A DNA stretch of 64,000 bases from Octopus vulgaris (Eukaryota): contig OX597830.1 in NCBI GenBank assembly GCA_951406725.2, positions 79,794,001 through 79,858,000 on the forward strand, written 5' to 3'. Below the pieces are notes generated by a model. That model saw only the letters and a list, made by a program, of their open reading frames with translations. It was not told the DNA's origin and ran no database searches. Made by a program: the position numbers and the translations under genes. Positions 23,786-64,000 of this stretch are shown here, one piece after another (position 1 is the first letter of the stretch; each line of letters begins with the position of its first letter).

Positions 23786-23844
<59 letters not shown>

Positions 23845-29300: not shown

Positions 29301-32058
29301 TTCTTGCTGGCGAATAGTTTTGCGAACATATTCCACGGTCCTTCGTAAAATTATGAATGATTCATTAAAGCGAGTCTCTGTCTCGTTTCTTCGTTGTCGA
29401 CTCCGCTGATATCTGAGAGAGTGATGCGCGAGTCTAGTGCGAGTAAAAGTGATTCAGAAAACGATTATAATAATATTTCTTTTATTACAAATGATCTTGA
29501 CATTCTTTTCACTTTACATAAAATATTCTTTACATTTACGGAGATGTATTTGCATAGCAAGTGACTTGATCTGAGATCGTGTGCTAAAACAAAAAAAAAC
29601 AATTGCAGCATGGAAGATATTTGTAAGCCATCCAAGAACACACAAAAACCGTTAATTTAATTTTCATTAGTGTCAAAATATTTTCTTCGTCTTGAAAACC
29701 ACGACCTGTTTGTTCACTGACAAAACTTGGTGCTTATTGCCATTTATTGACGAGTATTATATATTTTTCTGGGAACGAATTACGGTTTATAACATTGCTA
29801 CTATGGAAAATTATTGCTCTGCTTTACGAGTTTTTGTTTTAGGAGCGGTTTCCGAGTACAAATTAACTCGTATATCGAGGCCTTACTATATTTAAAAATT
29901 ATTCTGTGCTTAATTTTGTAGGAAAAGCAATTAAAGGGAAACAACTCTTGTCAACCTGTTCCTGCTCATAAGAGATTCGCAATATTAATTTTTGGCTTCG
30001 TTCTAACAATTCTTCAACTTTCTTTAGATGTGTTTGGTTAGTGGAGACAAAATTAAATTTCTTTACACCAATCAAGTCGGGAAAATTTAGAAAAAAAAAA
30101 AAAGAAAAGAGAAATTAAGAATTATGAGGGAAAATAACACGCTTGATAATAATAATAATATATTCCTAATATTCGTTTCAAAATTTAGCACAAGGCCAAT
30201 AATTTATGATGAGTGAATAAGTCGAATACATCGACCTCAGTACATGACTGGTACCTATTTTATCGACCCTGAAAGGAATAAAAGGCAAAGTCGACCTTGG
30301 CGAAATTTGAACTCAGAACGTAAAAACGAACGAAATGCCGCTAAGTATTTCGTCCGGCGTGCAAACGATTTTGTTAGCTCGCCCGCTTTTAAATATACGC
30401 CAGACAAAATGATTAACAGTATTTCGTCTGTCTTTATGTTCCGAGTTCAAATTCCACCGAGGATGACTTTGCTTTTCATCCCTTCGGGGTCGCTAAAATA
30501 AGTACCAGTTGAGTACTGGAGTCAGTGTAATAGACTTAACTACTCCATCGAAATGCTGGCCTTGTGCGAAAAATCTGAAACTAAAATTTATATATTTAAA
30601 GGCGGCAAGTAGGTAAAATCGTTATGGCGCCGGGGAAAATGCTTAGCGACGTTTCTTCAGACTTTGCGTTCTGAGTTCAAAGACCGTCGGGATCGGCTTT
30701 GCCTTTCATCCTTTCGGGGTCGATAAAATAAACACGAGTTGAACACTGTAGTCGATGTAACTGGCCTTGTGCCAAAATTTGAAGCCAATATATATATTCT
30801 TGCTGGCGAATAGTTTTGCGAACATATTCCACGGTCCTTCGTAAAATTATGAATGATTCATTAAAGCGAGTCTCTGTCTCGTTTCTTCGTTGTCGACTCC
30901 GCTGATATCTGAGAGTCTACAAGTGATGGTGTGCGCGAGTCAAGTGCGAGTAAAAGTGATTCAGAAAACGATTATAATAATATTTTTTTTATTACAAATG
31001 ATCTTGACATTCTTTTCACTTTACATAAAATATTCTTTACATTTACGGAGATGTATTTGCATAGCAAGTGACTTGATCTGAGATCGTGTGCTAAAACAAA
31101 AAAACAATTGCAGCATGGAAGATATTTGTAAGCCATCCAAGAACACACAAAAACCGTTAATTTAATTTTCATTCGTGTCAAAATATTTTCTTCGTCTTGA
31201 AAACCACGACCTGTTTGTTCACTGACAAAACTTGGTGCTTATTGCCATTTATTGACGAGTATTATATATTTTATAGAGAAAATATTTTTCTGGGAACGAA
31301 TTACGGTTTATAACATTGCTACTATGGAAAATTATTGCTCTGCTTTACGAGTTTTTGTTTTAGGAGCGGTTTCCGAGTACAAATTAACTCGTATATGGAG
31401 GCCTTACTATATTTAAAAATTATTCTTTGCATAATTTTGTAGGAAAAGCAATTAAAGGGAAATAACTCTTGTCAACCTGTTCCTGCTCTTAAGAGATTCG
31501 CAATATTAATTTTTGGCTTCGTTCTAACAATTCTTCAACTTTCTTTAGATGTGTTTGGTTAGTGGAGACAAAATTAAATTTCTTTACACTAATCAAGTCG
31601 GGAAAATTAAGAAAAAAAAAAGAAAAGAGAAATTAAGAATTATGAGGGAAAATAACACGCTTAATAATAATAATAATAATAATAATATATTCCTAATATT
31701 CGTTTCAAATTTTAGCACAAGGCCAATAATTTATGATGAGTGAATAAGTCGAATATATCGACCTCAGTATGACTGGTACTTATTTTATCGACCCTGAAAG
31801 GAATAAAAGGCAAAGTCGACCTTGGCGAAATTTGAACTCAGAACGTAAAAAGGAACGAAATGTCGCTAAGCATTTCGTCCGGCGTGCTAACGATTTTGTT
31901 AGCTCGCCCGCTTTTAAATATACGCCAGACAAAATGATTAACAGTATTTCGTCTGTCTTTATGTTCCGAGTTCAAATTCCACCGGGGTCGACTTTGCTTT
32001 TCATCCCTTCGGGGTCGCTAAAATAAGTACCAGTTGAGTACTGGAGTCAGTGTAATAG
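26375..32058 (-). repeat. ~1.5-kb tandem repeat array (about 3.7 units), inverted relative to 1-2683
   Basis: Marker ORF at 27226, 28748, 30244 and 31769 (periods 1522, 1496, 1525). Confidence 0.95.
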
Positions 32059-33005
32059 AAAACTAATAAGAAGAGTACAGTAGGCGGTGGAAAAAGCCAG
32101 CTTCTATCTATGGCTGAAGCGGGAAGACCGAAAATGGCTTGAAAGTCATAACATGCCGGCAGGAAATAACATCACTAGGCGAGACAAGCTGACACTGAAT
32201 CAGCTTCGCTGAATGACAGGTGACGGTCGTTTAGAGAATGCGAGGGCTAAAACTACGCTCCTTCACTAGTCAGTTAAGGTGAGACAGTATCACGTGACAA
32301 CTTGCTGGGGCTGCAAGCTGGAGACTGGCGGCAGGTATTTAAAGGGGAAAATTTGACAAGTTAGTCAGTGACCGGCTGGCACTCGCTGACGATACATCGA
32401 AGAGGCCAGGAAACAAAAGAAAGAAGACACTTCCGAAAGGGGCCGGGCCCCTCCACGTCAAAACAGTAGAGGAGTAGGGGCCGAAACCGGACGTGGTTCC
32501 TCCTGATGATGTCTTGAGCTAACTGGATCCTATAAAGGAGCTGTTGTGGTAGCAGACAACGAAACACGGTTGTAATTCCCCCCACAAAATGTACACACGC
32601 ACCAACACACATAGCATACACCCCTTCAAAATATATACACACACCATAATATACACCCCAAATAATATACACAGACCAACTCACATAGCACACACTCCCA
32701 CATAATACACACACACACGCAAACAATATAGAAACACAGCAACACACATACCATAAACACCTCCACAAAATATACACATTAACCAACAAACAGAGCATAC
32801 ACACTCACATAATATGCACACAACGGACGCACATAGCATGCACACACACAAACTGTACACGCATACCAATACACATAACAAACATACACACCTAAAACAC
32901 ATACACACCAACAAACAGAGCATATAATCTCATATAATATGCACACATAGCACCCCCCACCCATACACAATATGCACACAGACCAACATACATTCATACA
33001 GCCCC
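32059..33005. other. Unclassified GC-richer repeat with hammerhead-like boxes, followed by a degenerate CA-rich tract; mirror 60430-61380
   Basis: tatttaaag followed by ctgacga..gaaac, ggcccct..aggggcc-gaaac and ctgatga-tgtct..agaca-ac-gaaac; stem I pairing not evident. Confidence 0.35.
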
Positions 33006-33009
33006 TCAT

Positions 33010-34112
33010 GATATGATGGAAGTCTGTTGGGGTTCGACAGTGACATCAGTGACACCAGAGGTGAGAGCGGAACCCAAAGGCGGACGCGCAGACGTGGCCA
33101 CATGTTGGGCACGTAACAGCAGAAGTAGGATTGGAGATCCTCTCTTTTCGGGCTTGCCGCTTCTGGTCCAGGCTCTTGAGGCGCTTTTCCTCGAACAGCC
33201 TAACACCCTTTTGGACAGCTGGACGCCAGGTGCTGCGGTCAGAGGCAAGCGATTCTTAGCCACGAGCTGAAATGCCGCAGGCCTCAAGGGAAGTTTTCAG
33301 ACTGTCCTTGTATCGCCCCAGTGGCCTTCCAGGGTTTCTTACTCCAGAAGCCAGCTCAGAGAAGAAGATCATCTTTGGTAGATGCGCATCGTCCATTCGG
33401 ACTACATGTCCGACCCACTAGAGTTGGGCCTTCATGATGAGGGCTTCGATCCCGGGCATTTAGGCTCTGCAAAGCACCTCAGTGTTGGAGACTCTGTCCT
33501 CCCAGGAAATTCACATGATTCGTCGCAAGCAGCAGAGATGGAACTAGTCAAGTACTCGCATTTGTCTCCTATACAGCATCCATGTCCCACAGTCGTAGAG
33601 CAGAGAGGTGATGACGACTGCCGTATAGACTGCCAGCTTGGTGGAAAGTCTAACGCTTCGTTCGGCCCACACACATGTCCAAAGTCTGCCAAACGAAGCT
33701 CCTGCTTTTGCAAGCCTCATGGAGACATGTTTGTCCATGCTGCAGCTTGAGGACAGACAGCTTCCCAGGTATGTAAAGCTCTCCACGTTGTTCAGGGTTG
33801 TGCCCTCAATCTAATCTGAGACTCAGGAGGTGTCATGCCAGGTGCAGGCTGAAGCATCATTTCAGTGTTTCGCAGGCTAAAGGTCAGTCCGAAGGCTTTT
33901 GCTGCTTCTGCGAGACAAGTGTCAAGTTCTTGCAGCAGGTCTGGTTCATTCAATGCTGCAAGCGCACAATCGTCTGCAAACAGGAAGTCTCTCACTACGG
34001 CGCCCAGGACTTTGGTTTTTGCCTTCAGACGTCTGAGGTCAAAGAATCGGCCGTCACATCTGTAGCGAATAGTGACACCAGCATCAGACTTTGATAGGGC
34101 GCGGAAGAGCAT
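33010..34112 (-). mobile_element. RTE-clade LINE, 3' part (RT C-terminus and C2H2 finger); mirror 59325-60427 (+)
   Basis: IRYRCDGRFFDLRRLKAKTK, RDFLFADDCAL, FTYLGS and CPTCGHVCASAFGFRSHLWCH*; frameshifted. Confidence 0.9.
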
Positions 34113-34139
34113 GGCTCTCGAGTGCTACAGGTACCATGT

Positions 34140-35550
34140 AGCCCAGTACCACACGTTCCATGGTCGGGTCGTCGGCGACTAAACTGCCAACTCCACCAGG
34201 CTTGCTTGGTAAGGTCGGTGCTTGTTGAACACCCTACGGGACAAAAAAGTAAGACCTGTAAAAGAGTGGAGGAACTACAACGTAGTCAACGGCCATTCAA
34301 CTATGTGTGTTTGTGGGGTGTTTGTGTGTGTGTTGAATTTTGGACTCCTGTGTGTATGTATTGTATATACTGAGTTCTTTCTTTTTTAAATTGTATATAT
34401 CGTTTAGGCAGTGGGCAGGTCCTTCTGGTCCTGTACGGGTAGTGAGATGTTCCCGCTCTCCAAGAGTCTCCTGCTGCCTTGCGGGTAGGTTTTTTTTGGT
34501 TAATCAAAGGCTAGGGAGTAAACCGTATCCAAAGCCGAAGTGGCGCCCCTAAGGCGGTTAGGTAATGAAGTCCATCATCTCCAGCAGCGCCTGCAGTCCA
34601 GTCGTGGCTAGGATGTATCGTCCTGCGTCCCTCCTGGCTAGATCAGCTGGACCGAGAGGGGGTGGGGTGGGCTTGCGCAACCCAAGGCCTCCACAGTTCC
34701 CTTGCCCAGGATTCAGTGACTCCACCCCCTCTACTTCTTCTTCTTCCAAATCCTGAGGCGATGGGCGCGTGGTGGTGGTGGCAGATGCAGGATAGCGCTG
34801 GGAGCTGCTAGCCATGTACCTACACTCGGGTTGTCGTTCTGCAACCTACTGGGCAAGGGCATAGTTCGGCAGCCACTCTGACGACGGAGCAGCCCTCTTC
34901 AGGGATATCACTGCTCGCCCCCTTAGGGGGAAGGGTCTAGAAAAGGTGACCTAAAGAAAGCTTGCCTCATCTCATCCTTCCAGCATACCGCCGCTAACTG
35001 GTCATATACCACTCGGACGAAACATGAAAGAAATACGAAAGATGAATCCAAAATCTTCCCGCCCGAAAAGTACTTTATGTGTTGGAACCTGGAGCATCAG
35101 GACACACATGGACAACCAAAACTGTGACAGACCAGAACGTCGAACAGCACTTGTGGGTTGTGAACTGCAGAGATACAGCATTGATGTTGCTGCCCTCAGC
35201 GAGACACGCCTCGCCGTCACGGGGGAGATCACCGAGGCTGGGGCTAGATACACTTTCTTTTGGTCAAGGAAGGCAGCGGATGAACGCAGGGAAGTAAGAG
35301 TTGGCTTTTCCATTCGCACCGCCCTCGTCAAGAACATGGAATCCCTCTCAAGAGGAATCAGCGATCGCCTGATGGTGATGAGAACTCCTCTCCAAGGCAA
35401 GATGCACTGACACTCATCAGTGCTTAAGCTCCAACTGCGACCTACACTCTGGAGCAGAGAGAATTGTTCTATCAGAACCTCACCAAAGTGCTACGGTCAG
35501 TTCCTAAAGAATAGCAAGCTGCTGATACTCGGGGACTTCAATGCCCGTGT
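34140..35550 (+). mobile_element. RTE-clade LINE, 5' UTR and AP endonuclease; mirror 57890-59280 (-)
   Basis: GTWSIRT, RPERRTALV..ELQRYSIDVAALSETR, SDRLMVMR and LLILGDFNARV motifs. Confidence 0.9.
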
Positions 35551-36900
35551 AATGTCAACGTCTTCAGCTGAGAATATATCTTTAAGTGCAAGACGGATTT
35601 TACCAATTACTTTCAGGTTTTGGTTAGAGTTGTGAATTTGCGGGAGAGTGTCACGCTCATTCATACCAGTTTCTTTAATTTTCAGCCATTCTATCAGGAT
35701 TTCATTGCTTAGATCCTCCAGTTCAGTTGGGTCAATTTCTGTTTTACTTTCTTCATCTATTTGATTTTCATCTGCCTTGGTGTTTATGCTTGGTTCAGAG
35801 AGTATTTCACTTTGCTTATAAGTTACATTGACTCTTATTATCATTACCGCATTTTCATCAGACCTGGGTCAGTCTGTAATTATTTCCACAGTAGTATCTT
35901 CTTTACCTGCATCTTCGTTTCTTCTGACGTTGGCAAGGTTGTTACTATATAAGATCTTACTTCAAGATGCTCCTCTCTTCAGTTTAGGTAGGTTTGTTCA
36001 GTATTAGATTTATCTACCAACGACCATTTTTCATTCTTTTTCTTTTGGTTATTTGATGACGAGCTTGGATGGCCATTTGATGGAATATTCCGGTTGTGGG
36101 GCACTTCGAGCTCCTGCGTCATGGAAAGATTTGAACCAGTATCTGATTTTTCACACCCAGTCTGGTCCTCACTGGCGTGCGCGGCCCATGTTGGCTCTGG
36201 TGACGAACGATCCGGTGTGTATATTGCTTTGTTATCTTTGAGGCATGATGCGTTTGGACGTTAATATTAAGGTAGGATCTGTTTGTTTTGCGTTAACATT
36301 TTGAGACAACATGTTCTCTGAATGAAAGCATTGCTCGTAACATCGCTTTTAAAGGCAAACAGATCTGTATTCGTCTGTATGTTTTCGTTGTTGTTGACAG
36401 ATTTATCTCCGGGCATAGTTTCGTTGCAGTTATTTAAAACTTATGAATTATTCACTCTGTGTTAGTTCGAAGAAAATTGTATTGTTATAGTTTTGTTTCG
36501 TTTGCGACACGTGCTGTCATATACTTGTATGTGTGTCCTGTAAATTTCACGTAGTTGTGTAAACATTGGGTGTATGTGTAGTCCTATGGGTATTAATATA
36601 CGAATGCATAGACATTCGAGTGTATGCATAATTAAATCAATTTATGAATTTACTGTTTTCTTCCACTTATATTTTATAATTTGTAAAGTTTTCGACGTTG
36701 ATTTCGCACGTGTCTTTCGCACATCTTTCACTGAGACATCGTACATGGGAGAAACTGTTTTCCTATGGCAGTAAAATTTCGCTTTTTGTGATTATTTTCG
36801 TTATAATGCCGTTTCCTGCAAGTCTTCCGCGGGTTCCTTTTTCCTATTACACTGGTGTTATTAGATTAGATTTGTATTTGTATGGAGAGTCCGGTGTAAC
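35550..36900 (-). mobile_element. Probable 5' UTR and N-terminal region of another non-LTR element (possibly R4-like); mirror 56530-57890 (+)
   Basis: Decayed A-rich reading frame (KKKNEKWS...; NEILIEW.KIKETGMNERDTLPQI) cut at the RTE junction; clade assignment tentative. Confidence 0.45.
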
Positions 36901-36933
36901 ACGCCCATATTGTTATTCAGCGCGGAGCTGACA

Positions 36934-37118
36934 TCTTCTTCTTCTTCTTCTTCTTCTTCTTCTTCTTCTTCTTCTTCTTCTTCTTCTTCTTCTTCTTCTT
37001 CTTCTTCTTCTTCTTCTTCTTCTTCTTCTTCTTCTTCTTCTTCTTCTTCTTCTTCTTCTTCTTCTTCTTCTTCTTCTTCTTCTTCTTCTTCTTCTTCTTC
37101 TTCTTCTTCTTCTTCTTC
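36934..37118. repeat. Pure (CTT)n tract, ~60 units; mirror (GAA)n 56333-56504 is slightly shorter
   Basis: Direct reading. Confidence 0.97.
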
Positions 37119-37243
37119 CTAGTCAAGAGGAAGAGCGCGATGCGACTGCAGTCGATATTTTATTGGTTGAACGATATTTCGACAGATAGCTTGTCTTTGT
37201 CGAGTTCAGAATGAAAAGTGATAAAATTTCAAAATTATAGAAA

Positions 37244-38490
37244 CTAGCTGAACCACCGCCCTCCAGTCGGTCGATTCAGTTACTTACATATCTACACTCC
37301 TGTTTGTAGTTTGAAAGTAAAATGTGAAACCTACTATAATTTTCTTATAGAATTTCCTAATAGACAACTTTGTAAGTGTATATTCCATTCATACCCTTAT
37401 ACTTTGAGTCCAAAGCCAATATATGCTCATTGTTCCCAGAACCGATCGTGCTGTTGGCAACATAGCACTGGCCATGGATGAACATAGGTGTTGGCGGGTA
37501 AATTCCAACTGTTTCTTAAGTCTGACCTTGGGATTTGTCCTTTCAAAAGCCAGTTTCAGAGGAAACTGCTTCCTGGAAAATGAGAACGGATAGTCTTCAG
37601 TGGTGGTCAGTGGAATTCGTGGTATCATTATTCGGATTCCAGCATGTGTCCCATCGGCCACATCTGCTTCAATAAGGTGGTTGTGCAAATTCACGACCAT
37701 ATATCTTGTTCCGTTACAGTGACCTCCTGCTGGATCAAGGTTTCTGAGCAGCATAATTGAAGAGTGCTTCTTCAAAACCAAAATGTATGGTGGAAATCCT
37801 GATGAGTTGAGATCATTGATCAGTTCCGGCGGGAACTCAGTCTCGTTTTCGTATAAAGTATCACAGCTTTGATAAGTTCTACTATATCCTTGTAGAAGTT
37901 TTGACATGACAACTTTATTACTTTTTCAGCAGCCTTGTTTGTAGGAATAATGATGGCTCTGCTGCTTATCCATAGACCCTCTCTATATTTATCCTCAATA
38001 GCCCTGAAGACCACTTCACAAAGATCCTGTAGCTTTGTAGAGTCAATCAAATGCGGTGGGGCTATAGATATTTTGTATTCACAAATTTCTTTATTGAGAG
38101 AAAATGTTCTATTCCCCAGCTGGTCAAGATAGGGTGCGAAAGTAGTGTCAACACCGCAAGAATTTCGGACTCTCATATTGACAGACAACTGAAAGCTTTG
38201 GACATGGTTCCAAATGTATGACTGTTTTAATATGGCATGAACAATCTGGACTCTGTAACCTCTTTGCACCAAGCGCAAGATCTGCTTCCATTCTCCAGAA
38301 AACAAAACAGTCAGACCGCCAAACAGCTTATCTGGTTGTTGTCAAACTTCTCTAGGACTGCGATCAACACAATCATAGACATGCCTCTGGCCCATTGTAA
38401 CCTCGTCAATTACCTCTGGAATCACTTATTTTCATATGGCACATAAATTCTTCTGTAATTCGCAATGGAATACTGCATCTGGATTTGAAC
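37244..38490 (-). mobile_element. Helitron 3' fragment (PIF1-type helicase relic); mirror 54960-56207 (+)
   Basis: GEWKQIL, LSVNMRV, IMLLRNLDPAGGHCNGTR and IPRIPL...FSRKQFPLKLAF motifs; terminal accg...cggt hairpin followed by CTAG|T. Confidence 0.9.
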
Positions 38491-38970
38491 TCTAGCTTTA
38501 TCTAGTGTGATGCTGCTACTCTTAAGTAGATCCCATCTTTTCAAGGTTGCTTTGGCACATTTTTCTAAGCCAAATTTCATATTTATTTGTTTGGTAAATC
38601 CATGTACTGTCTGTAGTATTGATTCCAGGTGTTTATCATTTGTAGTCTACAGTTTTAGGTCATCCATACATAAGAGGCGGCTGATTGCTTTGCCGTAACA
38701 GTTGTATCCGCTTTCAGTTCTGTCAGATAAAGGTGTCAGTGTGAAACATATAAGGAGTGGAGAGAGCGTGTCTCCCTGGAATATTCCTCTTCTAATGGGG
38801 ATGGCTTTGGTTTTTATGAATCCCTCTTTTGTTTGGAGCTGTAGCAAGGTCTGCCATTTATTTATGGAATGTGTTATACATTTTATGATTATTAGTGCCA
38901 CCTTGTTCATGGCTAGTGTTTCTAGGATCCATGTGTGGAGAATGCTATCAAACACCTTTCGGTAGTACAA
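38490..38970 (-). mobile_element. R4/Dong-like non-LTR RT fragment; mirror 54482-54960 (+)
   Basis: YRKVFDSILHTWI, IRRGIFQGDTLSPLL, MDDLKL and MKFGLEKCAK motifs. Confidence 0.85.
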
Positions 38971-38979
38971 CCTGTTATA

Positions 38980-41088
38980 TGGTCGGGTTGTCGGCAACTA
39001 AACCGGTAACCCCACAATGGCTTGCTTGGTGAGGTGGGTATTTGGTGGATGCCCTGCGGGACAGAAAATAAGACATGTCAAAGGGCGGAGGAACTACAGC
39101 GTAGTCAACGGCCATTCAACAACGTATGTTTGTGGATGTGCGTGTGGAGTGTTTAAGTTTGTGTGTATGTATTGTAAATATTGCATTTAAAACCTGTGTG
39201 CCTATCTGTATATACTGTATATATTGTATTTCAAGCTGTTTGTGTGCATATTGTATATTGTGTTTTACATTGTATATATTGTATGTCAATTTTATTCTTA
39301 ATTTTATTTTTCTTATCTTAGTCTTTTTTTAAATAAATAGATGAGGGTTGGATAGGATTCCTCTGCTTACGCAAGTCGTGGCGAAGGTAGTCTATCTCGG
39401 AGAAAGTAACTCTGAATTTAAATACTTCACTGCTGTCTTGTAGTTAGCCTTTGGCTGAGCAAAGACTCGGAGAAGAACACTCGGATATAAAATATGCGAC
39501 TGCAAATGCACCCAATGATGTCGACTTATTATTCTTCTTGGATCATGCATTGTAGTTTAGAGAGTGGGAATGGTTGCTGTGCAACACTCTTCCTCGTTTT
39601 AAAATGTGTCAGGCACAGGTATTGCTGGAGAGGAAAAGGAAATGAACATCTTGTATGTACATGGTTGACCACCAAAACTTAAAAAGGCACAACTAAACAA
39701 TGAAAGTTCATATTGATACTGAAGCAAATGACAAAAAGGGCTCTGGAACATTTTGTTTTGTGGTTTGGCCCGGCAGGTGTCCCAGGGCACGACAACCTGG
39801 ATCTGGTCGTCATCTTGCAACTGTGAGTAAATTCAGGTTAAGATGCAAGCCTTTGAATATAGGATGTTGGAATGTTCGAATGTTAGACAATGATTGTCTG
39901 AAATCTCGTCCGGAGAGGAGATCCGCGCTTGTTGAAAAAGAGTTACAGCGACATGAATGTTGTAGAGTTAGCCGAAACAAAAATTCATGGAAAGTGGGAT
40001 TTGGTAGAGAAATCTGCTGTGTATCATTTATTTTGGAGCAGTAGAGAGGAGACCTATAAGACAGAATCAAGAGTGGGATTTACTATCAAAACCACTTTGG
40101 TTTCAAACCTTGAGGAACTACCATGTGATAATTCTGATCGTTTGATGTCTTCAACACCTCCATTAAGAAAAGGTCGCTATGCAACACTCATTACTGCATA
40201 TGCTTCAACTATATCTTATATAGATCCCTTCAGTGCAATCTTCAAAAGCTATTTGAAAGACTATTGCAAAATACATAGCAAACAATGCAGGAGCAGGAAT
40301 ATTACCTTGTTTTACACCATTTTATAGAGAAATTGGATCTGATAAGGTACCTCCAACATTAGCTCTCACTTCTGTCTTGTCATGAAATTGTCTAAGCATT
40401 CTTACAAATTTTTCAGGGCATCCTAGCTTTTTCAGGATCTCCCAAAGTACAATTCCATTGATAGAATCAAACGCTTTTGTTAGATCATTGAAAATCTGGT
40501 ATACGTCCATATCCTGTTCGATGTACTTCTCTTGCTAAAAATATCATATCCATAGTACTCCTTCTATCCCTAAACTCACATTGCGATTCTGGTAGAACCT
40601 CATCAGCAATGTGCAGAAACAATCTGTCCAGCATTACTCTACAAAGGGCCTTTCCAGCAACAGCTAACAGATACCGCGATAATTATCACAGACATCGTTT
40701 CCATAGTTGCTTCACGCCAATCCGGAGGAACCTCTTCACTATGCCAAACCCTCTGAATCACATCCGTCAACATTGTACAGTGATGATCACCACCATATTT
40801 ATATATCTCTGTACCTAGTCCATCCATGCCATGAGCATTTCTATAGTTCAATTTCCTGATAGCTGCTTTTATTTCAACCAGGTTTGGAACTTCTGCTATA
40901 AGATGTTTTATTGATCTCCCAGATATATTATCAAGAAAAGAGAGGTCAACTTTAGTAGGTCTATTGAGCAAATCGTCAAAATGTTCTTTCCATCTCCCAA
41001 CAATATCTTTAGGATTTGTTAATAATTCTGTACCATCCTCGCTCCGAAGCGGCGCAACCTTTGATGACACTGGTCCAGAAACTTTTTT

Positions 41089-41128
<40 letters not shown>

Positions 41129-42908: not shown

Positions 42909-42953
<45 letters not shown>

Positions 42954-43260: not shown

Positions 43261-43281
43261 CTTTTGGAAATGGCTTTTCTC

Positions 43282-43394
43282 GTGTAACGAGGGTGCAGCT
43301 ATGATGTATGTATGTATGTATGTATGTATGTATGTATGTATGTATGTATGTATGTATGTATGTATGTATGTATGTATGCATGTATGTATGCATG

Positions 43395-43453
<59 letters not shown>
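43282..43453. repeat. (TATG)n/(TA)n microsatellite; mirror 49983-50135 differs in composition
   Basis: Direct reading. Confidence 0.95.
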
Positions 43454-43456
<3 letters not shown>

Positions 43457-43479
43457 ATTGTAATATGTGACAATTATTT

Positions 43480-50488: not shown

Positions 50489-50549
<61 letters not shown>

Positions 50550-52333: not shown

Positions 52334-52364
<31 letters not shown>

Positions 52365-55300
52365 CGAAAAAAGTTTCTGAACCAGTGTCATCAAAGGTTG
52401 CGCCGCTTCGGAGCGAGGATGGTACAGAATTATTAACAAATCCTAAAGATATTGTTGGGAGATGGAAAGAACATTTTGACGATTTGCTCAATAGACCTAC
52501 TAAAGTTGACCTCTCTTTCTTGATAATATATCTGGGAGATCAATAAAACATCTTATAGCAGAAGTTCCAAACCTGGTTGAAATAAAAGCAGCTATCAGGA
52601 AATTGAACTATAGAAATGCTCATGGCATGGATGGACTAGGTACAGAGATATATAAATATGGTGGTGATCATCACTGTACAATGTTGACGGATGTGATTCA
52701 GACGGTTTGGCATAGTGAAGAGGTTCCTCCGGATTGGCGTGAAGCAACTATGGAAACGATGTCTGTGATAATTATCGCGGTATCTGTTAGCTGTTGCTGG
52801 AAAGGTCCTTTGTAGAGTAATGCTCGACAGATTGTTTCTGCACATTGCTGATGAGGTTCTACCAGAATCGCAATGTGAGTTTAGGGATAGAAGGAGTACT
52901 ATGGATATGATATTTTTAGCAAGAGAAGTACATCGAACAGGGTATGGACGTATACCAGACTTTCAATGATCTAACAAAAGCGTTTGATTCTATCAATGGA
53001 ATTGTACTTTGGGAGATCCTGAAAAGCTATGATGCCCTGAAAAATTTGTAAGAATGCTTAGACAATTTCATGACAAGACAGAAGTGAGAGCTAATGTTGG
53101 AGGTACCTTATCAGATCCAATTTCTCTATAAAATGGTGTAAAACAAGGTAATATTCCTGCTCCTGCATTGTTTGCTATGTATTTTGCAATAGTCTTTCAA
53201 ATAGCTTTTGAAGATTGCACTGAAGGGATCTATATAAGATATAGTTGAAGCATATGCAGTAATGAGTGTTGCATAGCGACCTTTTCTTAATGGAGGTGTT
53301 GAAGACATCAAACGATCTGAATTATCACATGGTAGTTCCTCAAGGTTTGAAACCAAAGTGGTTTTGATAGTAAATCCCACTCTTGATTCTGTCTTATAGG
53401 TCTCCTCTCTACTGCTCCAAAATAAATGATACACAGCAGATTTCTCTACCAAATCCCACTTTCCATGAATTTTTGTTTCGGCTAACTCTACAACATTCAT
53501 GTCGCTGTAACTCTTTTTCAACAAGCGCGGATCTCCTCTCCGGACGAGATTTCAGACAATCATTGTCTAACATTCGAACATTCCAACATCCTATATTCAA
53601 AGGCTTGCATCTTAACCTGAATTTACTCACAGTTGCAAGATGACGACCAGATCCAGGTTGTCGTGCCCTGGGACACCTGCCGGGCCAAACCACAAAACAA
53701 AATGTTCCAGAGCCCTTTTTGTCATTTGCTTCAGTATCAATATGAACTTTCATTGTTTAGTTGTGCCTTTTTAAGTTTTGGTGGTCAACCATGTACATAC
53801 AAGATGTTCATTTCCTTTTCCTCTCCAGCAATACCTGTGCCTGACACATTTTAAAACGAGGAAGAGTGTTGCACAGCAACTATTCCCACTCTCTAAACTA
53901 CAATGCATGATCCAACAAGAATAATAAGTCGACATCATTGGGTGCATTTGCAGTCGCATATTTTATATCCGAGTGTTCTTCTCCGAGTCTTTGCTCAGCC
54001 AAAGGCTAACTACAAGACAGCAGTGAAGTATTTAGATTCAGAGTTACTTTCTCCGAGATAGACTACCTTCGCCACGACTTGCGTAAGCAGAGGAATCCTA
54101 TCCAACCCTCATCTATTTATTTATAAAAGACTAAGATAAGAAAAATAAAATTAAGAATAAAATTGACATACAATATATACAATGTAAAACACAATATACA
54201 ATATGCACACAAACAGCTTGAAATACAATATATACAGTACATACAGATAGGCACACAGGTTTTAAATGCAATATTTACAATACATACACACAAACTTAAA
54301 CACTCCACACGCACATCCACAAACATACGTTGTTGAATGGCCGTTGACTACGCTGTAGTTCCTCCGCCCTTTGACATGTCTTATTTTCTGTCCCGCAGGG
54401 CATCCACCGAATACCCACCTCACCAAGCAAGCCATTGTGGGGTTACCGGTTTAGTCGCCGACAACCCGACCATATAACAGGTTGTACTACCGAAAGGTGT
54501 TTGATAGCATTCTCCACACATGGATCCTAGAAACACTAGCCATGAACGAGGTGGCACTAATAATCATAAAATGTATAACACATTCCATAAATAAATGGCA
54601 GACCTTGCTACAGCTCCAAACAAAAGAGGGATTCATAAAAACCAAAGCCATCCCCATTAGAAGAGGAATATTCCAGGGAGACACGCTCTCTCCACTCCTT
54701 ATATGTTTCACACTGACACCTTTATCTGACAGAACTGAAAGCGGATACGACTGTTACGGCAAAGCAATCAGCCGCCTCTTATGTATGGATGACCTAAAAC
54801 TGTAGACTACAAATGATAAACACCTGGAATTATTACTACAGACAGTACATGGATTTACCAAACAAATAAATATGAAATTTGGCTTAGAAAAATGTGCCAA
54901 AGCAACCTTGAAAAGATGGGATCTACTTAAGAGTAGCAGCATCACACTAGATAAAGCTAGAGTTCAAATCCAGATGCAGTATTCCATTGCGAATTACAGA
55001 AGAATTTATGTGCCATATGAAAATAAGTGATTCCAGAGGTAATTGACGAGGTTACAATGGGCCAGAGGCATGTCTATGATTGTGTTGATCGCAGTCCTAG
55101 AGAAGTTTGACAACAACCAGATAAGCTGTTTGGCGGTCTGACTGTTTTGTTTTCTGGAGAATGGAAGCAGATCTTGCGCTTGGTGCAAAGAGGTTACAGA
55201 GTCCAGATTGTTCATGCCATATTAAAACAGTCATACATTTGGAACCATGTCCAAAGCTTTCAGTTGTCTGTCAATATGAGAGTCCGAAATTCTTGCGGTG

Positions 55301-58300
55301 TTGACACTACTTTCGCACCCTATCTTGACCAGCTGGGGAATAGAACATTTTCTCTCAATAAAGAAATTTGTGAATACAAAAAATCTATAGCCCCACCGCA
55401 TTTGATTGACTCTACAAGGCTACAGGATCTTTGTGAAGTGGTCTTCAGGGCTATTGAGAATAAATATAGAGAGGGTCTATGGATAAGCAGCAGAGCCATC
55501 ATTATTCCTACAAACAAGGCTGCTGAAAAAGTAATAAAGTTGTCATGTCAAAACTTCTACAAGGATATAGTAGAACTTATCAAAGCTGTGATACTTTATA
55601 CGAAAACGAGACTGAGTTCCCGCCGGAACTGATCAATGATCTCAACTCATCAGGATTTCCACCATACATTTTGGTTTTGAAGAAGCACTCTTCAATTATG
55701 CTGCTCAGAAACCTTGATCCAGCAGGAGGTCACTGTAACGGAACAAGATATATGGTCGTGAATTTGCACAACCACCTTATTGAAGCAGATGTGGCCGATG
55801 GGACACATGCTGGAATCCGAATAATGATACCACGAATTCCACTGACCACCACTGAAGACTATCCGTTCTCATTTTCCAGGAAGCAGTTTCCTCTGAAACT
55901 GGCTTTGAAAGGACAAATCCCAAGGTCAGACTTAAGAAACAGTTGGAATTTACCCGCCAACACCTATGTTCATCCATGGCCAGTGCTATGTTGCCAACAG
56001 CACGATCGGTTCTGGGAACAATGAGCATATATTGGCTTTGGACTCAAAGTATAAGGGTATGAATGGAATATACACTGACAAAGTTGTCTTTTAGGAAATT
56101 CTATAAGAAAATTATAGTAGGTTTCACATTTTACTTTCAAACTACAAACAGGAGTGTAGATATGTAAGTAACTAAATCGACCGACTGGAGGGCGGTGGTT
56201 CAGCTAGTTTCTATAATTTTGAGATTTTATCACTTTTCATTCTGAACTCGACAAAGACAAGCTATCTGTCGAAATATCGTTCAACCAATAAAATATCGAC
56301 TGCAGTCGCATCGCGCTCTTCCTCTTGACTAGGAAGAAGAAGAAGAAGAAGAAGAAGAAGAAGAAGAAGAAGAAGAAGAAGAAGAAGAAGAAGAAGAAGA
56401 AGAAGAAGAAGAAGAAGAAGAAGAAGAAGAAGAAGAAGAAGAAGAAGAAGAAGAAGAAGAAGAAGAAGAAGAAGAAGAAGAAGAAGAAGAAGAAGAAGAA
56501 GAAGATGTCAGCTCCGCGCTGAATAACAATATGGGCGTGTTACACCGGACTCTCCATACAAATACAAATCTAATCTAATAACACCAGTGTAATAGGAAAA
56601 AGGAACCCGCGGAAGACTTGCAGGAAACGGCATTATAGCGAAAATAATCACAAAAAGCGAAATTTTACTGCCATAGGAAAACAGTTTCTCCCATGTACGA
56701 TGTCTGAGTGAAAGATGTGCGAAAGACACGTGCGAAATCAACGTCGAAAACTTTACAAATTATAAAATATAAGTGGAAGAAAACAGTAAATTCATAAATT
56801 GATTTAATTATGCATACACTCGAATGTCTATGCATTCGTATATTAATACCCATAGGACTACACATACACCCAATGTTTACACAACTACGTGAAATTTACA
56901 GGACACACATACAAGTATATGACAGCACGTGTCGCAAACGAAACAAAACTATAAGAATACAATTTTCTTCGAACTAACACAGAGTGAATAATTCATAGGT
57001 TTTAAATAACTGCAACGAGACTATACCCGGAGATAAATCTGTCAACAACAACGAAAACATACAGACGAATACAGATCTGTTTGCCTTTAAAAGCGATGTT
57101 ACGAGCAATGCTTTCATTCAGAGAACATGTTGTCTGAAAATGTTAACGCAAAACAAACAGATCCTACCTTAATATTAACGTCCAAACGCATCATGCCTCA
57201 AAGATAACAAAGCAATATACACACCGGATCGTTCGTCACCAGAGCCAACATGGGCAGCGCACGCCAGTGAGGGACCAGACTGGGTGTGAAAAATCAGATA
57301 CTGGTTCAAATCTTTCCATGACGCAGGAGCTCGAAGTGCCCCACAACCGGAATATTCCATCAAATGGCTATCCAAGCTCGTCATCAAATAACCAAAAGAA
57401 AAAGAATGAAAAATGGTCGTTGGTAGATAAATCTAATACTGAACAAACCTACCTAAACTGAAGAGAGGAGCATCTTGAAGTAAGATCTTATATAGTAACA
57501 ACCTTGCCAACGTCAGAAGAAACGAAGATGCAGGTAAAGAAGATACTACTGTGGAAATAATTACAGACTGACCCAGGTCTGATGAAACTGCGGTTATGAT
57601 AACAAGAGTCAATGTAACTTATAAGCAAAGTGAAATACTCTCTGAACCAAGCATAAACACCAAGGCAGATGAAAATCAAATAGATGAAGAAAGTAAAACA
57701 GAAATTGACCCAACTGAACTGGAGGATCTAAGCAATGAAATCCTGATAGAATGGCTGAAAATTAAAGAAACTGGTATGAATGAGCGAGACACTCTCCCGC
57801 AAATTCACAACTCTAACCAAAACCTGAAAGTAATTGGTAAAATCCGTCTTGCACTTAAAGATATATTCTCAGCTGAAGATGTTGACATTACACGGGCATT
57901 GAAGTCCCCGAGTATCAGCAGCTTGCTATTCTTTAGGAACTGACCGTAGCACTTTGGTGAGGTTCTGATAGAACAATTCTCTCTGCTCCAGAGTGTAGGT
58001 CGCAGTTGGAGCTTAAGCACTGATGAGTGTCAGTGCATCTTGCCTTGGAGAGGAGTTCTCATCACCATCAGGCGATCGCTGATTCCTCTTGAGAGGGATT
58101 CCATGTTCTTGACGAGGGCGGTGCGAATAGAAAAGCCAACTCTTACTTCCCTGCGTTCATCCGCTGCCTTCCTTGACCAAAAGAAAGTGTATCTAGCCCC
58201 AGCCTCGGTGATCTCCCCCGTGACGGCGAAGCGTGTCTCGCTGAGGGCAGCAACATCAATGCTGTATCTCTGCAGTTCACAACCCACAAGTGCTGTTCGA

Positions 58301-61300
58301 CGTTCTGGTCTGTCACAGTTTTGGTTGTCCATGTGTGTCCTGATGCTCCAGGTTCCAACACATAAAGTACTTTTCGGGCGGGAAGATTTTGGATTCATCT
58401 TTCGTATTTCTTTCATGTTTCGACCGAGTGGTATATGACCAGTTAGCGGCGGTATGCTGGCAGGATGAGATGAGGCAAGCTTTCTTTAGGTCACCTTTTC
58501 TAGACCCTTCCCCCTAAGGGGGCAAGCAGTGATATCCCTGAAGAGGGCTGCTCCGTCGTCAGAGTGGCTGCCGAACTATGCCCTTGCCCCAGTAGGTTGC
58601 AGAACGACAACCCGAGTGTAGGTACATGGCTAGCAGCTCCCAGCGCTATCCTGCACCTGCCACAACCACCACGCGCCCATCGCCTCAGGACTTGGAAGAA
58701 GAAGAAGTAGAGGGGGTGGAGTCACTGAATCCTGGGCAAGGGAACTGTGGAGGCCTTGAGTTGCGCAAGCCCACCCCACCCCCTCTCGGTCCAGCTGATC
58801 TAGCCAGGAGGGACACAGGACGATACATCCTAGCCACGACTGGACTGCAGGCGCTGCTGGAGATGATGGACTTCATTACCTAACCGCCTTAGGGGCGCCA
58901 CTTCGGCTTTGGATACGGTTTACTCCCTAGCCTTTGATTAACCAACAAAACCTACCCGCAAGGCAGCAGGAGACTCTTGGAGAGCGGGAACGTCTCACTA
59001 CCCGTACAGGACCAGAAGGATCTGCCCACTGCCTAAACGATATATACAATTTAAAAAAGAAAGAACTCAGTATATACAATACATACACACAGGGAGTCCA
59101 AAATTCAACACACAAACACCCCACAAACACACATAGTTGAATGGCCGTTGACTACGTTGTAGTTCCTCCACTCTTTTACAGGTCTTACTTTTTTGTCCCG
59201 TAGGGTGTTCAACAAGCACCGACCTTACCAAGCAAGCCTGGTGGAGTTGGCAGTTTAGTCGCCGACGACCCGACCATGGAACGTGTGGTACTGGGCTACA
59301 TGGTACCTGTAGCACTCGAGAGCCATGCTCTTCCGCGCCCTATCAAAGTCTGATGCTGGTGTCACTATTCGCTACAGATGTGACGGCCGATTCTTTGACC
59401 TCAGACGTCTGAAGGCAAAAACCAAAGTCCTGGGCGCCGTAGTGAGAGACTTCCTGTTTGCAGACGATTGTGCGCTTGCAGCATTGAATGAACCAGATCT
59501 GCTGCAAGAACTTGACACTTGTCTCGCAGAAGCAGCAAAAGCCTTCGGACTGACCTTTAGCCTGCGAAACACTGAAATGATGCTTCAGCCTGCACCTGGC
59601 ATGACACCTCCTGAGTCTCAGATTAGATTGAGGGCACAACCCTGAACAACGTGGAGAGATTTACATACCTGGGAAGCTGTCTGTCCTCAAGCTGCAGCAT
59701 GGACAAACATGTCTCCATGAGGCTTGCAAAAGCAGGAGCTTCGTTTGGCAGACTTTGGACATGTGTGTGGGCCGAACGAAGCGTTAGACTTTCCACCAAG
59801 CTGGCAGTCTATACGGCAGTCGTCATCACCTCTCTGCTCTACGACTGTGGGACATGGATGCTGTATAGGAGGCAAATGCGAGTACTTGACTAGTTCCATC
59901 TCTGCTGCTTGCGACGAATCATGTGAATTTCCTGGGAGGACAGAGTCTCCAACACTGAGGTGCTTTGCAGAGCCTAAATGCCCGGTATCGAAGCCCTCAT
60001 CATGAAGGCCCAACTCTGGTGGGTCGGAAATGTAGTCCGAATGGACGACGCGCATCTACCAAAGATGATCTTCTTCTCTGAGCTGGCTTCTGGAGTAAGA
60101 AACCCTGGAAGGCCACTGGGGCGATACAAGGACAGTCTGAAAACTTCCCTTGAGGCCTGCGGCATTTCAGCTCGTGGCTAAGAATCGCTTGCCTCTGACC
60201 GCAGCACCTGGCGTCCAGCTGTTCAAAAGGGTGTTAGGCTGTTCGAGGAAAAGCGCCTCAAGAGCCTGGACCAGAAGCGACAAGCCCGAAAAGAGAGGAT
60301 CTCCAATCCTACTTCTGCTGTTACGTGCCCAACATGTGGCCACGTCTGCGCGTCCGCCTTTGGGTTCCGCTCTCACCTCTGGTGTCACTGATGTCACTGT
60401 CAAACCCCAACAGACTTCCATCATATCATGAGGGGCTGTATGAATGTATGTTGGTCTGTGTGCATATTGTGTATGGGTGGGGGGTGCTATGTGTGCATAT
60501 TATATGAGATTATATGCTCTGTTTGTTGGTGTGTATGTATTTTAGGTGTGTATGTTTGTTATGTGTATTGGTATGCGTGTACAGTTTGTGTGTGTGTATG
60601 CTATGTGAGTGTGTATGCTCTGTTTGTTGGTTAATATGTATATTTTGTGGAGGTGTTTATGGTATGTGTGTTGCTGTGTTTCTATATTGTTTGCGTGTGT
60701 GTGTGTATTATGTGGGAGTGTGTGCTATGTGAGTTGGTCTGTGTGTATATTATTTGGGGTGGGGTGCTATGTGAGTTGGTGTGTGTATATATTTTGAAGG
60801 GGTGTATGCTATGTGTGTTGGTGCGTGTGTACATTTTGTGGGAAGTATGTGTTTGTGGGGGGAATTACAACCGTGTTTCGTTGTCTGCTACCACAACAGC
60901 TCCTTTATAGGATCCAGTTAGCTCAAGACATCATCAGGAGGAACCACGTCCGGTTTCGGCCCCTACTCTCTACTGCTTTGACGTGGAGGGGCCCGGCCCC
61001 TTTCGGATGTGTCTCCTTTCTTTTGTTTCCTGGCCTCTTCGATGTATCGTCAGCGAGTGCCAGCCGGTCACTGACTAACTTGTCAAATTTTCCCCTTTAA
61101 ATACCTGCCGCCAGTCTCCAGCTTGCAGCCCCAGCAAGTTGTCGCGTGATACTGTCTCACCTTAACTGACTAGTGAAGGAGCGTAGTTTTAGCCCTCGCA
61201 TTCTCTAAACGACCGTCACCTGTCATTCAGCGAAGCTGATTCAGTGTCAGCTTGTCTCGCCTAGTGATGTTATTTCCTGCCGGCATGTTATGACTTTCAA

Positions 61301-64000
61301 GCCATTTTCGGTCTTCCCGCTTCAGCCATAGATAGAAGCTGGCTTTTTCCACCGCCTACTGTACTCTTCTTATTAGTTTTCTATTACACTGACTCCAGTA
61401 CTCAACTGGTACTTATTTTAGCGACTCCGAAGGGATGAAAAGCAAAGTCGACCCCGGTGGAATTTGAACTCGGAACATAAAGACAGACGAAATACTGTTA
61501 ATCATTTTGTCTGGCGTATATTTAAAAGCGGGCGAGCTAACAAAATCGTTAGCACGCCGGACGAAATGCTTAGCGACATTTCGTTCGTTTTTACGTTCTG
61601 AGTTCAAATTTCGCCAAGGTCGACTTTGCCTTTTATTCCTTTCAGGGTCGATAAAATAAGTACCAGTCACGTACTGAGGTCGATATATTCGACTTATTCA
61701 CTCATCATAAATTATTGGCCTTGTGCTAAAATTTGAAACGAATATTAAGAATATATTATTATTATTATTAAGCGTGTTATTTTTCCTCATAATTCTTAAT
61801 TTCTCTTTTTTTTTTTTTTTCTTAATTTTCCCGACTTGATTAGTGTAAAGAAATTTAATTTTGTCTCCACTAACCAAACACATCTAAAGAAAGTTGAAGA
61901 ATTGTTAGAACGAAGCCAAAAATTAATATTGCGAATCTCTTAAGAGCAGGAACAGGTTGACAAGAATTGTTTCCCTTTAATTGCTTTTCCTACAAAATTA
62001 TGCAAAAAATAATTTTTAAATATAGTAAGGCCTCCATATACGAGTTAATTTGTACTCGGAAACCGCTCCTAAAACAAAAACTCGTAAAGCAGAGCAATAA
62101 TTTTCCATAGTAGCAATGTTATAAACCGTAATTCGTTCCCAGAAAAATATTTTCTCTATAAAATATATAATACTCGTCAATAAATGGCAATAAGCACCAA
62201 GTTTTGTCAGTGAACAAACAGGTCGTGGTTTTCAAGACGAAGAAAATATTTTGACACAAATGAAAATTAAATTAACGGTTTTTGTGTGTTCTTGGATGGC
62301 TTACAAATATCTTCCATGCTGCAATTGTTTTTTTTGTTTTAGCACACGATCTCAGATCAAGTCACTTGCTATGCAAATACATCTCCGTAAATGTAAAGAA
62401 TATTTTATGTAAAGTGAAAAGAATGTCAAGATCATTTCTAATAAAAAAAATATTATTATAATCGTTTTCTGAATCACTTTTACTCGCACTTGACTCGCGC
62501 ACACCATCACTTGTAGACTCTCAGATATCAGCGGAGTCGACAACGAAGAAACGAGCCAGAGACTCGCTTTAATGAATCATTCATAATTTTACGAAGGACC
62601 GTGGAATATGTTCGCAAAACTATTCGCCAGCAAGAATATATATATTGGCTTCAAATTTTGGCACAAGGCCAGTTACATCGACTACAGTGTTCAACTCGTG
62701 TTTATTTTATCGACCCCGAAAGGATGAAAGGCAAAGCCGACCACGACGGTCTTTGAACTCAGAACGCAAAGTCTGAAGAAACGTCGCTAAGCATTTTCCC
62801 CGGCGCCATAACGATTTTACCTACTTGCCGCCTTTAAATATATAAATTTTGGTTTCAGATTTTTCGCACAAGGCCAGCATTTCGATGGAGTAGTTAAGTC
62901 TATTACACTGACTCCAGTACTCAACTGGTACTTATTTTAGCGACCCCGAAGGGATGAAAAGCAAAGTCATCCTCGGTGGAATTTGAACTCGGAACATAAA
63001 GACAGACGAAATACTGTTAATCATTTTGTCTGGCGTATATTTAAATGCGGGCGAGCTAACAAAATCGTTTGCACGCCGGACGAAATACTTAGCGGCATTT
63101 CGTTCGTTTTTACGTTCTGAGTTCAAATTTCGCCAAGGTCGACTTTGCCTTTTATTCCTTTCAGGGTCGATAAAATAGGTACCAGTCATGTACTGAGGTC
63201 GATGTATTCGACTTATTCACTCATCATAAATAATTGGCCTTGTGCTAAATTTTGAAACGAATATTAGGAATATATTATTATTATTATCAAGCGTGTTATT
63301 TTCCCTCATAATTCTTAATTTCTCTTTTTTTTTTTTTTTTTCTAAATTTTCCCGACTTGATTGGTGTAAAGAAATTTAATTTTGTCTCCACTAACCAAAC
63401 ACATCTAAAGAAAGTTGAAGAATTGTTAGAACGAAGCCAAAAATTAATATTGCGAATCTCTTATGAGCAGGAACAGGTTGACAAGAGTTGTTTCCCTTTA
63501 ATTGCTTTTCCTACAAAATTAAGCACAGAATAATTTTTAAATATAGTAAGGCCTCGATATACGAGTTAATTTGTACTTGGAAACCGCTCCTAAAACAAAA
63601 GCTCGTAAAGCAGAGCAATAATTTTCCATAGTAGCAATGTTATAAACCGTAATTCGTTCCCAGAAAAATATTTTCTCTATAAAATATATAATACTCGTCA
63701 ATAAATGGCAATAAGCCCCAAGTTTCGTCAGTGAACAAACAGGTCGTGGTTTTCAAGACGAAGAAAATATTTTGACACTAATGAAAATTAAATTAACGGT
63801 TTTTGTGTGTTCTTGGATGGCTTACAAATATCTTCCAAGCTGCAATTGTTTTTTTTGTTTTAGCACACGATCTCAGATCAAGTCACTTGCTATGCAAATA
63901 CATCTCCGTAAATGTAAAGAATATTTTATGTAAAGTGAAAAGAATGTCAAGATCATTTGTAATAAAAGAAATATTATTATAATCGTTTTCTGAATCACTT
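46705..64000 (-). repeat. Palindrome 2, right arm (runs off the window end)
   Basis: Reverse complement of the left arm from the apex ...agatggt|gtgtgcctat|accatct... outward, with scattered substitutions and microsatellite length changes. Confidence 0.96.
61381..64000 (+). repeat. ~1.52-kb tandem repeat array, mirror copy in palindrome 2
   Basis: Marker ORF at 61413 and 62932; same orientation as 1-2683. Confidence 0.95.

What the first reader, a model, noticed from the sequence alone, without database searches (positions are those of the whole stretch)
29440..64000. Giant (at least 34 kb) near-perfect palindrome with only a 10-nt spacer
Seen: everything from ~29440 to 46694 is mirrored from 46705 to the window end. 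The arms differ by scattered substitutions (e.g. at least 3 amino-acid differences in the 161-aa Helitron ORF pair, at least 5 in the 122-aa pair 33382/59687) and by microsatellite lengths. Known: long, nearly spacerless palindromes are unstable and usually acquire central deletions. Inference: roughly 1% substitution divergence suggests a real, heritable palindrome of some age rather than a single-read fold-back chimera, though an inverted join of two haplotypes is possible.
Basis: partly seen in the sequence, partly recalled or inferred. Interest (0 to 1): 0.85.

Follow-up and report, generated by a model that had tools for sequence, protein, structure and literature searches.

The report
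Fold-back palindrome in octopus MDH1B amplicon
The 34-kb mirror image is really in this octopus sequence, beside two inverted copies of the MDH1B gene; its 10-base centre is a fold-back break inside a retrotransposon that was more likely made during sequencing or assembly than in the animal, though this is untested.

Summary
Observation confirmed: 29447-46694 mirrors 46705-64000 around a 10-nt loop. The arms differ by 145 clean substitutions in 17.25 kb (0.84%, ts/tv 94/51, evenly spread), so they are two different molecules, not one read.

New anatomy: the apex cuts a non-LTR retrotransposon ORF. One strand reads native WYRHTP through the 'spacer'; family copies in 3 of 3 contig runs continue EKVTENEK. 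The apex is therefore a fold-back at a 4-bp stem (TGGT/ACCA) with loss of the element's 3' end.

The left half of the window is a second, older inverted duplication (7-kb spacer) with a complete and a truncated MDH1B copy. O. vulgaris has six MDH1B models on one chromosome, five using exons from the arm sequence, so the arms belong to a real amplicon.

Whether the apex exists in vivo is unresolved: laying four runs was swamped by the abundant element. Arm divergence is close to octopus heterozygosity (1.22%), and described stable giant palindromes have spacers of 77 bp or more, so I favour a fold-back join of two amplicon copies or haplotypes in the assembly (0.6) over an old germline near-spacerless palindrome (0.35).

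The parts
29447..46694 (+). Left arm of the giant palindrome (left limit set by the window end on the right)
46691..46708 (.). Apex: 4-bp stem TGGT/ACCA around a 10-nt loop (46695-46704); the loop is native retroelement sequence on the - strand; fold-back junction
   Evidence: (loose ends before 46691 and behind 46694)
46705..64000 (-). Right arm, runs off the window
45330..46694 (+). Fragment of a very abundant non-LTR retrotransposon (RT tail, zinc knuckle; R4/Dong-like label recalled), cut at the apex before its endonuclease part; start approximate; 10 one-base indels between the arms
   Evidence: (zf-RVT)
46691..48100 (-). Mirror copy of the retrotransposon fragment, 14 nt longer at its 3' end (reads ...KRWYRHTP); far end approximate
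37389..38341 (-). Pif1/Helitron helicase fragments (mirror about 55100-56070 +); used as upstream exon by three truncated O. vulgaris MDH1B models
38412..38444 (-). Stretch encoding MCHMKISDSRG, the predicted first exon of two complete O. vulgaris MDH1B models (mirror from 55008 +)
26373..32059 (+). Array of ~1.5-kb tandem units (repeat A), about 3.7 units; partly inside the left arm
61380..64000 (-). Repeat A in the right arm; mirror-partner units differ by 0.8-1.0%
1..12463 (+). Left arm of an older inverted duplication: repeat A (1-2742), intron-like DNA with private insertions, truncated MDH1B
10552..11736 (+). Truncated MDH1B copy: the large exon only; lacks the MQDCPYY exon and the three 3' exons
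12464..19478 (.). 7,015-bp spacer of the older inversion; holds the three 3' exons of the long MDH1B copy
13996..25003 (-). Long MDH1B copy, five exon-like segments (25003-24887, 21188-20088, ~19052-18906, ~16900-16749, 14217-13996); the MAKFVIA start seen in O. bimaculoides is not found in the window
19479..29800 (-). Right arm of the older inverted duplication (far end approximate, inside repeat A)

Best explanation
The two arms are distinct copies of a multi-copy octopus MDH1B amplicon sequence, and the 10-nt apex is a fold-back junction inside a retrotransposon that most likely arose in a sequencing molecule and was used by the assembler to join two copies head to head. Steps. Shown: the DNA is cut inside the element ORF just after ...WYRHTP, and the last four bases pair with four bases lying 10 nt upstream. 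Inferred: a free 3' end folded back there and was extended, giving a hairpin molecule read as a palindrome. Inferred: because native reads cover both sides of such a joint without a gap, and the element is very abundant, the joint escaped chimera filters, and the contig ran back along the other haplotype or another amplicon copy, which supplies the 0.84% biological-looking divergence. Not distinguished: haplotype versus paralog as the second arm.
For: Fold-back anatomy: minus strand reads TTEKRWYRHTP through the loop; family contigs stop matching at 46691 and continue as EKVTENEKAT (46, 16 and 44 contigs in 3 of 3 contig runs); family protein P0084 matches up to WY.HTP and then goes on for about 130 residues. 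Arm divergence 0.84% is close to the 1.22% heterozygosity given for O. vulgaris (PMC10700109 passage). The arms show no indel above 27 bp in 17 kb, whereas the neighbouring older inverted pair has five private blocks of 290-4,849 bp and 6% flank divergence. Described lasting palindromes have larger centres: 77 bp-358 kb for 26 human X palindromes (PMC8327919 passage), 766-70,466 bp in 21 sequenced human germline inverted duplications (PMC3907307 passage). Fold-back reads are about 0.55-0.6% of ONT genomic reads and often have no extra sequence at the joint (PMC12870357). One-base indels are about tenfold enriched in the 1.3 kb beside the apex (10 in 1,294 bp vs 14 in 15,953 bp, p 4e-6; all 10 in homopolymer runs), which looks like uncorrected long-read error, so the apex zone is poorly validated. 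No protein with the junction peptide came back.
Against: The locus is a real inverted amplicon, where head-to-head joints are expected: an older inverted junction lies in the same window, and O. vulgaris has truncated, complete, truncated models at accession numbers ...659...661...662, the order this window would give if the right arm leads to a truncated copy (orientations unknown). The apex is clean and sits on a micro-inverted repeat like true fold-backs (2-8 bp in PMC3907307; 2-14 bp in PMC10766183; 5-11 bp with 6-35-nt spacers in yeast, PMC10622511); only 38-99 of 1,570 positions in the element offer such a stem. The three PacBio samples in PMC12870357 (HiFi, Mas-Seq, Iso-Seq) showed no systemic fold-backs. 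The indel excess coincides with the young repeat, so it may only reflect failed polishing and does not itself favour artefact. Absence of the junction was not shown: 24 of 21,899 laid pieces were listed, and the protein look-ups are weak negatives.
Confidence: 0.6

Rival explanations
1. The apex is real and inherited. A break in the retrotransposon was repaired by fold-back priming at the 4-bp stem (or a replication template switch), replication made a near-spacerless head-to-head duplication, and it has persisted long enough for the arms to drift 0.84% apart. Together with the older tail-to-tail junction it forms an alternating inverted array that amplified MDH1B in the O. vulgaris complex.
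For: Six O. vulgaris and at least three named O. sinensis MDH1B records against one gene (two isoforms) recovered for O. bimaculoides; five of six O. vulgaris models take an exon from the arm sequence; variants such as I/V, E/K and SEE/SED occur in records of both species; older inversion with exon 0.17% vs flanks 6% suggests arm-to-arm conversion; clean junction on a micro-stem; even, transition-rich divergence.
Against: A 190-bp perfect core with a 10-nt loop should be fragile: shorter spacers and higher identity raise instability (PMC7999016 passage), and small spacers are the least conserved in primate X palindromes (PMC8327919 passage). No central deletion despite the age implied. No independent molecule across the apex was seen (inconclusive).
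Confidence: 0.35
2. One fold-back read supplied both arms, and the differences are sequencing errors.
For: Homopolymer indels beside the apex.
Against: 145 substitutions with ts/tv 1.8 and CpG transitions, spread evenly over 17 kb; microsatellite length changes and a 22-bp tandem duplication.
Confidence: 0.03
3. Two independent retrotransposon insertions happen to lie head to head, so there is no fold-back.
For: The family is very abundant.
Against: Both copies would have to be cut within 14 nt of the same ORF position and carry 15 kb of the same non-element flank.
Confidence: 0.01

Closest known systems
Fold-back inverted duplications (human germline, PMC3907307; yeast Sae2/Mre11 system, PMC10622511)
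   Same: Inverted arms, single-copy loop bounded by a few bases of inverted microhomology, loss of the sequence beyond the break.
   Different: Human germline spacers are 766 bp or more; yeast tiny-loop products are fresh laboratory events with identical arms. Here the loop is 10 nt and the arms are 0.84% apart.
Fold-back (palindromic) long-read artefacts and the misassemblies they seed (PMC12870357; Pacasus preprint 10.1101/173872, listing only)
   Same: Strand switch at the same locus with little or no inserted sequence.
   Different: Arms differ like two haplotypes or paralogs, so a read could only have supplied the joint.
Mammalian sex-chromosome palindromes (PMC8327919)
   Same: Arms over 8 kb, about 99% identity, amplified protein-coding gene, signs of local homogenisation in the older pair.
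   Different: Spacers 77 bp-358 kb; sex linkage and testis bias not tested here; half of the octopus copies are truncated.
ODIRA inverted amplicons (PMC10766183)
   Same: Junction at a pre-existing 4-bp interrupted inverted repeat; alternating orientation of units.
   Different: Preferred repeat span 40-80 bp, here 18 bp; the second junction has a 7-kb spacer; no origin test.

Membership tests
Fold-back inverted duplication | Long inverted arms meeting at a single-copy loop of native sequence | tested here: met
Fold-back inverted duplication | Inverted microhomology at the loop edges | tested here: met
   Exactly 4 bp; the native next base does not extend the stem. Weak hairpin, -1.2 kcal/mol, z -0.41
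Fold-back inverted duplication | Sequence beyond the break is missing | tested here: met
   About 130 C-terminal residues of family protein P0084 have no match in the window
Fold-back inverted duplication | Junction present in independent genomic molecules (germline) | tested here: inconclusive
   swamped by the repeat family; weak negatives
Long-read fold-back artefact | Strand switch within 200 bp of the same locus | tested here: met
   criterion from PMC12870357
Long-read fold-back artefact | Arms identical apart from read errors | tested here: not met
   ts/tv 94/51, CpG transitions; only the joint can be read-derived
Long-read fold-back artefact | Junction absent from other libraries | tested here: inconclusive
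Sex-chromosome-type palindrome | Arms of 8 kb or more at 99% identity or more | tested here: met
   17.2 kb or more, 99.16% by substitutions; borderline once indels are counted
Sex-chromosome-type palindrome | Spacer in the described range (77 bp-358 kb) | tested here: not met
   10 nt
Sex-chromosome-type palindrome | Arm-to-arm gene conversion | tested here: inconclusive
   Older pair: exon 2 of 1,200 bases differ, flanks 6%; young pair shows no converted tracts
Sex-chromosome-type palindrome | Sex linkage and testis-biased expression | not tested
   no RNA search made
ODIRA amplicon | Both junctions at short interrupted inverted repeats within 100 bp | tested here: not met
   met at 46691-46708; the other junction has a 7,015-bp spacer
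ODIRA amplicon | Replication origin inside the amplicon | not testable with these tools
   no origin consensus for octopus
R4/Dong-type non-LTR retrotransposon (apex element) | RT followed by zinc knuckle and restriction-like endonuclease | tested here: inconclusive
   YMDD motif and zf-RVT seen; endonuclease and clade label rest on recalled motifs, no tree built

The most novel reading that the evidence does not exclude
An octopus germline carries a palindrome with arms over 17 kb and a 10-nt loop, born by fold-back inside a retrotransposon and kept without central deletion while its arms diverged by almost 1%. It would be the head-to-head joint of an alternating inverted MDH1B array shared across the O. 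vulgaris complex, with a centre smaller than the palindromes in the papers read here.
Probability: 0.35. Interest if true: 0.78.

Novelty: new member of a known kind. Interest (0 to 1): 0.42.

Why it matters
If real, it would be an old, near-spacerless giant palindrome in an animal germline, against the rule that such centres are quickly lost, and would give a dated natural test of palindrome stability and of arm-to-arm conversion outside mammals. If artefact, it flags a misjoin in an octopus assembly and shows that percent-level, transition-rich arm divergence does not validate a palindrome. Either way the MDH1B inverted amplicon of the O. vulgaris complex seems undescribed: a search for 'octopus' with 'MDH1B' gave one unrelated preprint, one for cephalopod palindromes/amplicons gave none, and none of the 15 listed of 62 hits mention octopus. 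The library lacks most subscription papers.

Tried and rejected
No whole genome is held, so the arm could not be followed past 64000. Read laying on 46270-46740 with X7, X4, X1, X21 (4 of the 24 runs listed): 5,565, 2,041 and 14,240 contigs and only 2 raw reads were laid; none of the 24 listed pieces (of 21,899) passes 46685; 224 loose-end rows were not shown; the cross-run table of joined forms was not given. The single 'opposite strands' joint (46688 to 46729, X7) was rejected as junction evidence: 46729 mirrors 46670, so I read it as an 18-base go-back in a family copy, matching the X1 row 46728 to 46711. Junction peptide: no candidate at 67-214 aa, one native family protein at 136-2000 aa, 0 of 6 window ORFs in the exact look-up; weak, since even native copies were barely returned. 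Junction DNA pattern in metagenome contigs: 0, uninformative for octopus. Earlier findings: nothing relevant in six look-ups. Polarising arm differences: left arm matches other repeat-A units at 9 sites, right at 2, 9 ambiguous, 1 unresolved of 21, and matches O. vulgaris at 4 of 4 Pif1 differences, but disruptions in the retroelement fall on both arms; neighbouring units may be homogenised with the left arm, so no conclusion was drawn. The indel excess near the apex was first read as a sign of artefact, then downgraded because it follows the bounds of the young repeat.
Full report
1. Observation. Self-BLAST shows one inverted match covering 29447-64000. Aligned outward from the apex, the arms (29447-46694 and 46705-64000) differ by 172 substitution calls and 44 internal indel events. 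Dropping 27 calls in four misaligned low-complexity patches leaves 145 substitutions in 17.25 kb (0.84%): 94 transitions, 51 transversions, Poisson-even per kb. The innermost 190 pairs are perfect and the unpaired centre is 10 nt. The arms are therefore two different biological molecules, and the left limit is set only by the window end.

2. Organism. A 399-aa ORF present twice in the left half is 99-100% identical to putative malate dehydrogenase 1B (MDH1B) of Octopus vulgaris and 89% to O. bimaculoides, so the window is from the O. vulgaris species complex. The window's long copy differs at several residues from each of the three complete O. vulgaris models, so I treat those models as coming from a different sequence (inference).

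3. The apex. It lies inside the ORF of a non-LTR retrotransposon (YMDD motif near 45520, zf-RVT match; the R4/Dong-like label is recalled, not tested). On the minus strand the frame reads ...TTEKRWYRHTP straight through the loop. Family contigs from three runs stop matching at 46691 and continue with sequence that reads EKVTENEKAT (46, 16, 44 contigs), and four contigs leave the plus strand at 46694 with the native loop sequence. Family protein P0084 aligns up to WY.HTP and has about 130 further residues that are absent from the window. So the 'spacer' is native DNA, the element was broken after its CCA codon, and the terminal ACCA pairs with TGGT across a 10-nt loop. The stem is exactly 4 bp and weak (-1.2 kcal/mol, no better than shuffles), but only 38 (loop up to 10 nt) to 99 (loop up to 20 nt) of 1,570 positions offer one. 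This is the anatomy of fold-back priming (PMC7999016 passage; PMC3907307 passages; PMC10622511 passages). That anatomy can arise in a cell or, by my inference, at a DNA end during library preparation.

4. The surroundings. Bases 1-12463 are an older inverted copy of 19479 to about 29800, around a 7,015-bp spacer. The two copies have five private blocks of 290-4,849 bp and 6% divergence in flanks, yet only 2 of 1,200 bases differ in the large MDH1B exon, which suggests local gene conversion (inference). The minus-strand copy has five exon-like segments (25003-13996); the plus-strand copy has only the large exon. The MAKFVIA start of the O. bimaculoides protein is not in the window. A 1.5-kb tandem repeat occurs at 1-2742, 26373-32059 and 61380-64000; mirror-partner units of the giant palindrome differ by 0.8-1.0%, all other unit pairs by 1.1-2.8%, so the giant pair is the youngest.

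5. The arm sequence is multi-copy elsewhere. O. vulgaris has six MDH1B models on one chromosome: three complete (CAI9735594, 617, 661) and three truncated (593, 659, 662). All three truncated models start in the Pif1/Helitron ORF found in the arm at 37389-38341, and two complete ones start with a stretch found at 38444, so at least five copies of arm sequence are assembled there. O. sinensis has three named records, two on a small contig. The order truncated-complete-truncated at 659/661/662 is what this window would give if its right arm leads to a truncated copy, but accession numbers carry no orientation, so this is a hint only.

6. Test of the junction. Twenty runs from nine studies hold the left-arm stretch in part. 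I laid 4 of the 24 listed runs on 46270-46740. The element is so abundant that 21,846 contigs were laid; 24 of 21,899 pieces were listed and none crosses the apex; the raw-read run gave 2 reads; the one opposite-strand joint is better read as an 18-base go-back in a family copy. The junction is neither shown nor excluded. Searches for the junction peptide or DNA found nothing but are weak.

7. Weighing. For an artefactual centre: divergence near the heterozygosity of O. vulgaris (1.22%, PMC10700109 passage); no large indel between arms; described lasting palindromes have centres of 77 bp or more (PMC8327919 passage) or 766 bp or more; fold-back reads are common in ONT genomic data and often lack junk at the joint (PMC12870357, parts 1-2 of 5 and passages); the zone beside the apex has tenfold more one-base indels, all in homopolymer runs, so it looks unpolished. 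For a real centre: an authentic inverted amplicon with another inverted junction in the same window; a clean joint on a micro-stem like yeast and ODIRA junctions (PMC10766183 passages); the O. vulgaris model order; no systemic fold-backs in the three PacBio samples of PMC12870357; and the indel excess follows the bounds of the young repeat, so it does not discriminate. I put 0.6 on a fold-back join of two copies or haplotypes in the assembly, 0.35 on a real inherited apex, and the rest on minor rivals. These odds are judgement, not computed.

8. Relation to known kinds. It works like a fold-back inverted duplication (three anatomical features met, germline presence untested). It is not a plain single-read artefact (arms differ biologically), not a sex-chromosome-type palindrome by spacer size, and not a textbook ODIRA amplicon (second junction has 7 kb). 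The octopus MDH1B amplicon was not found in print. Papers not named above were seen as search listings only; no supplements were opened.

9. Verdict. Observation confirmed; interpretation partly supported. A real amplicon with an unverified, probably artefactual near-spacerless centre. One k-mer count in raw short reads would settle it.

Noticed in passing
window 1-12463 vs 19479-29800: Older inverted duplication with a 7-kb spacer; MDH1B exon nearly identical (0.17%) amid 6%-divergent flanks, suggesting conversion. Likely the more secure biological feature of the window.
   Followed up: yes
window 24887-25003 (-): This exon reads GMQDCPYY where O. bimaculoides has GKLDCPYY after MAKFVIA; the upstream coding exon is not in the window, and named O. 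sinensis models start at this M. The amplified copies may use a new start or may lack their first exon.
   Followed up: partly
window 37389-38341 (-) and 55100-56070 (+): Helitron Pif1 fragments are joined to the MDH1B exon in three O. vulgaris gene models (one named PIF1-like helicase); probably prediction artefacts, no RNA check made.
   Followed up: partly
window 26373-32059, 1-2742, 61380-64000: 1.5-kb tandem unit holding pieces of a dispersed repeat in inverted orientation; the left array lacks about half a unit at its start.
   Followed up: partly
window 13268-13818: Three tandem copies (184-bp period, 97% match) of a dispersed repeat that recurs many times in the window (octopus SINE label recalled).
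   Followed up: no
window 23206-23810: AT-rich ~600-bp imperfect palindrome (90.6% self-inverted match) inside a block present only in the right arm of the older inversion.
   Followed up: no
window 43400-43441 vs 49997-50040: Left arm has pure (TA)n where the right arm has a degenerate TACA/TGCA repeat of the same length.
   Followed up: no
run X21: Only 2 reads laid from 1,934 million letters on a very abundant repeat; the run or its filtering is unrepresentative.
   Followed up: no
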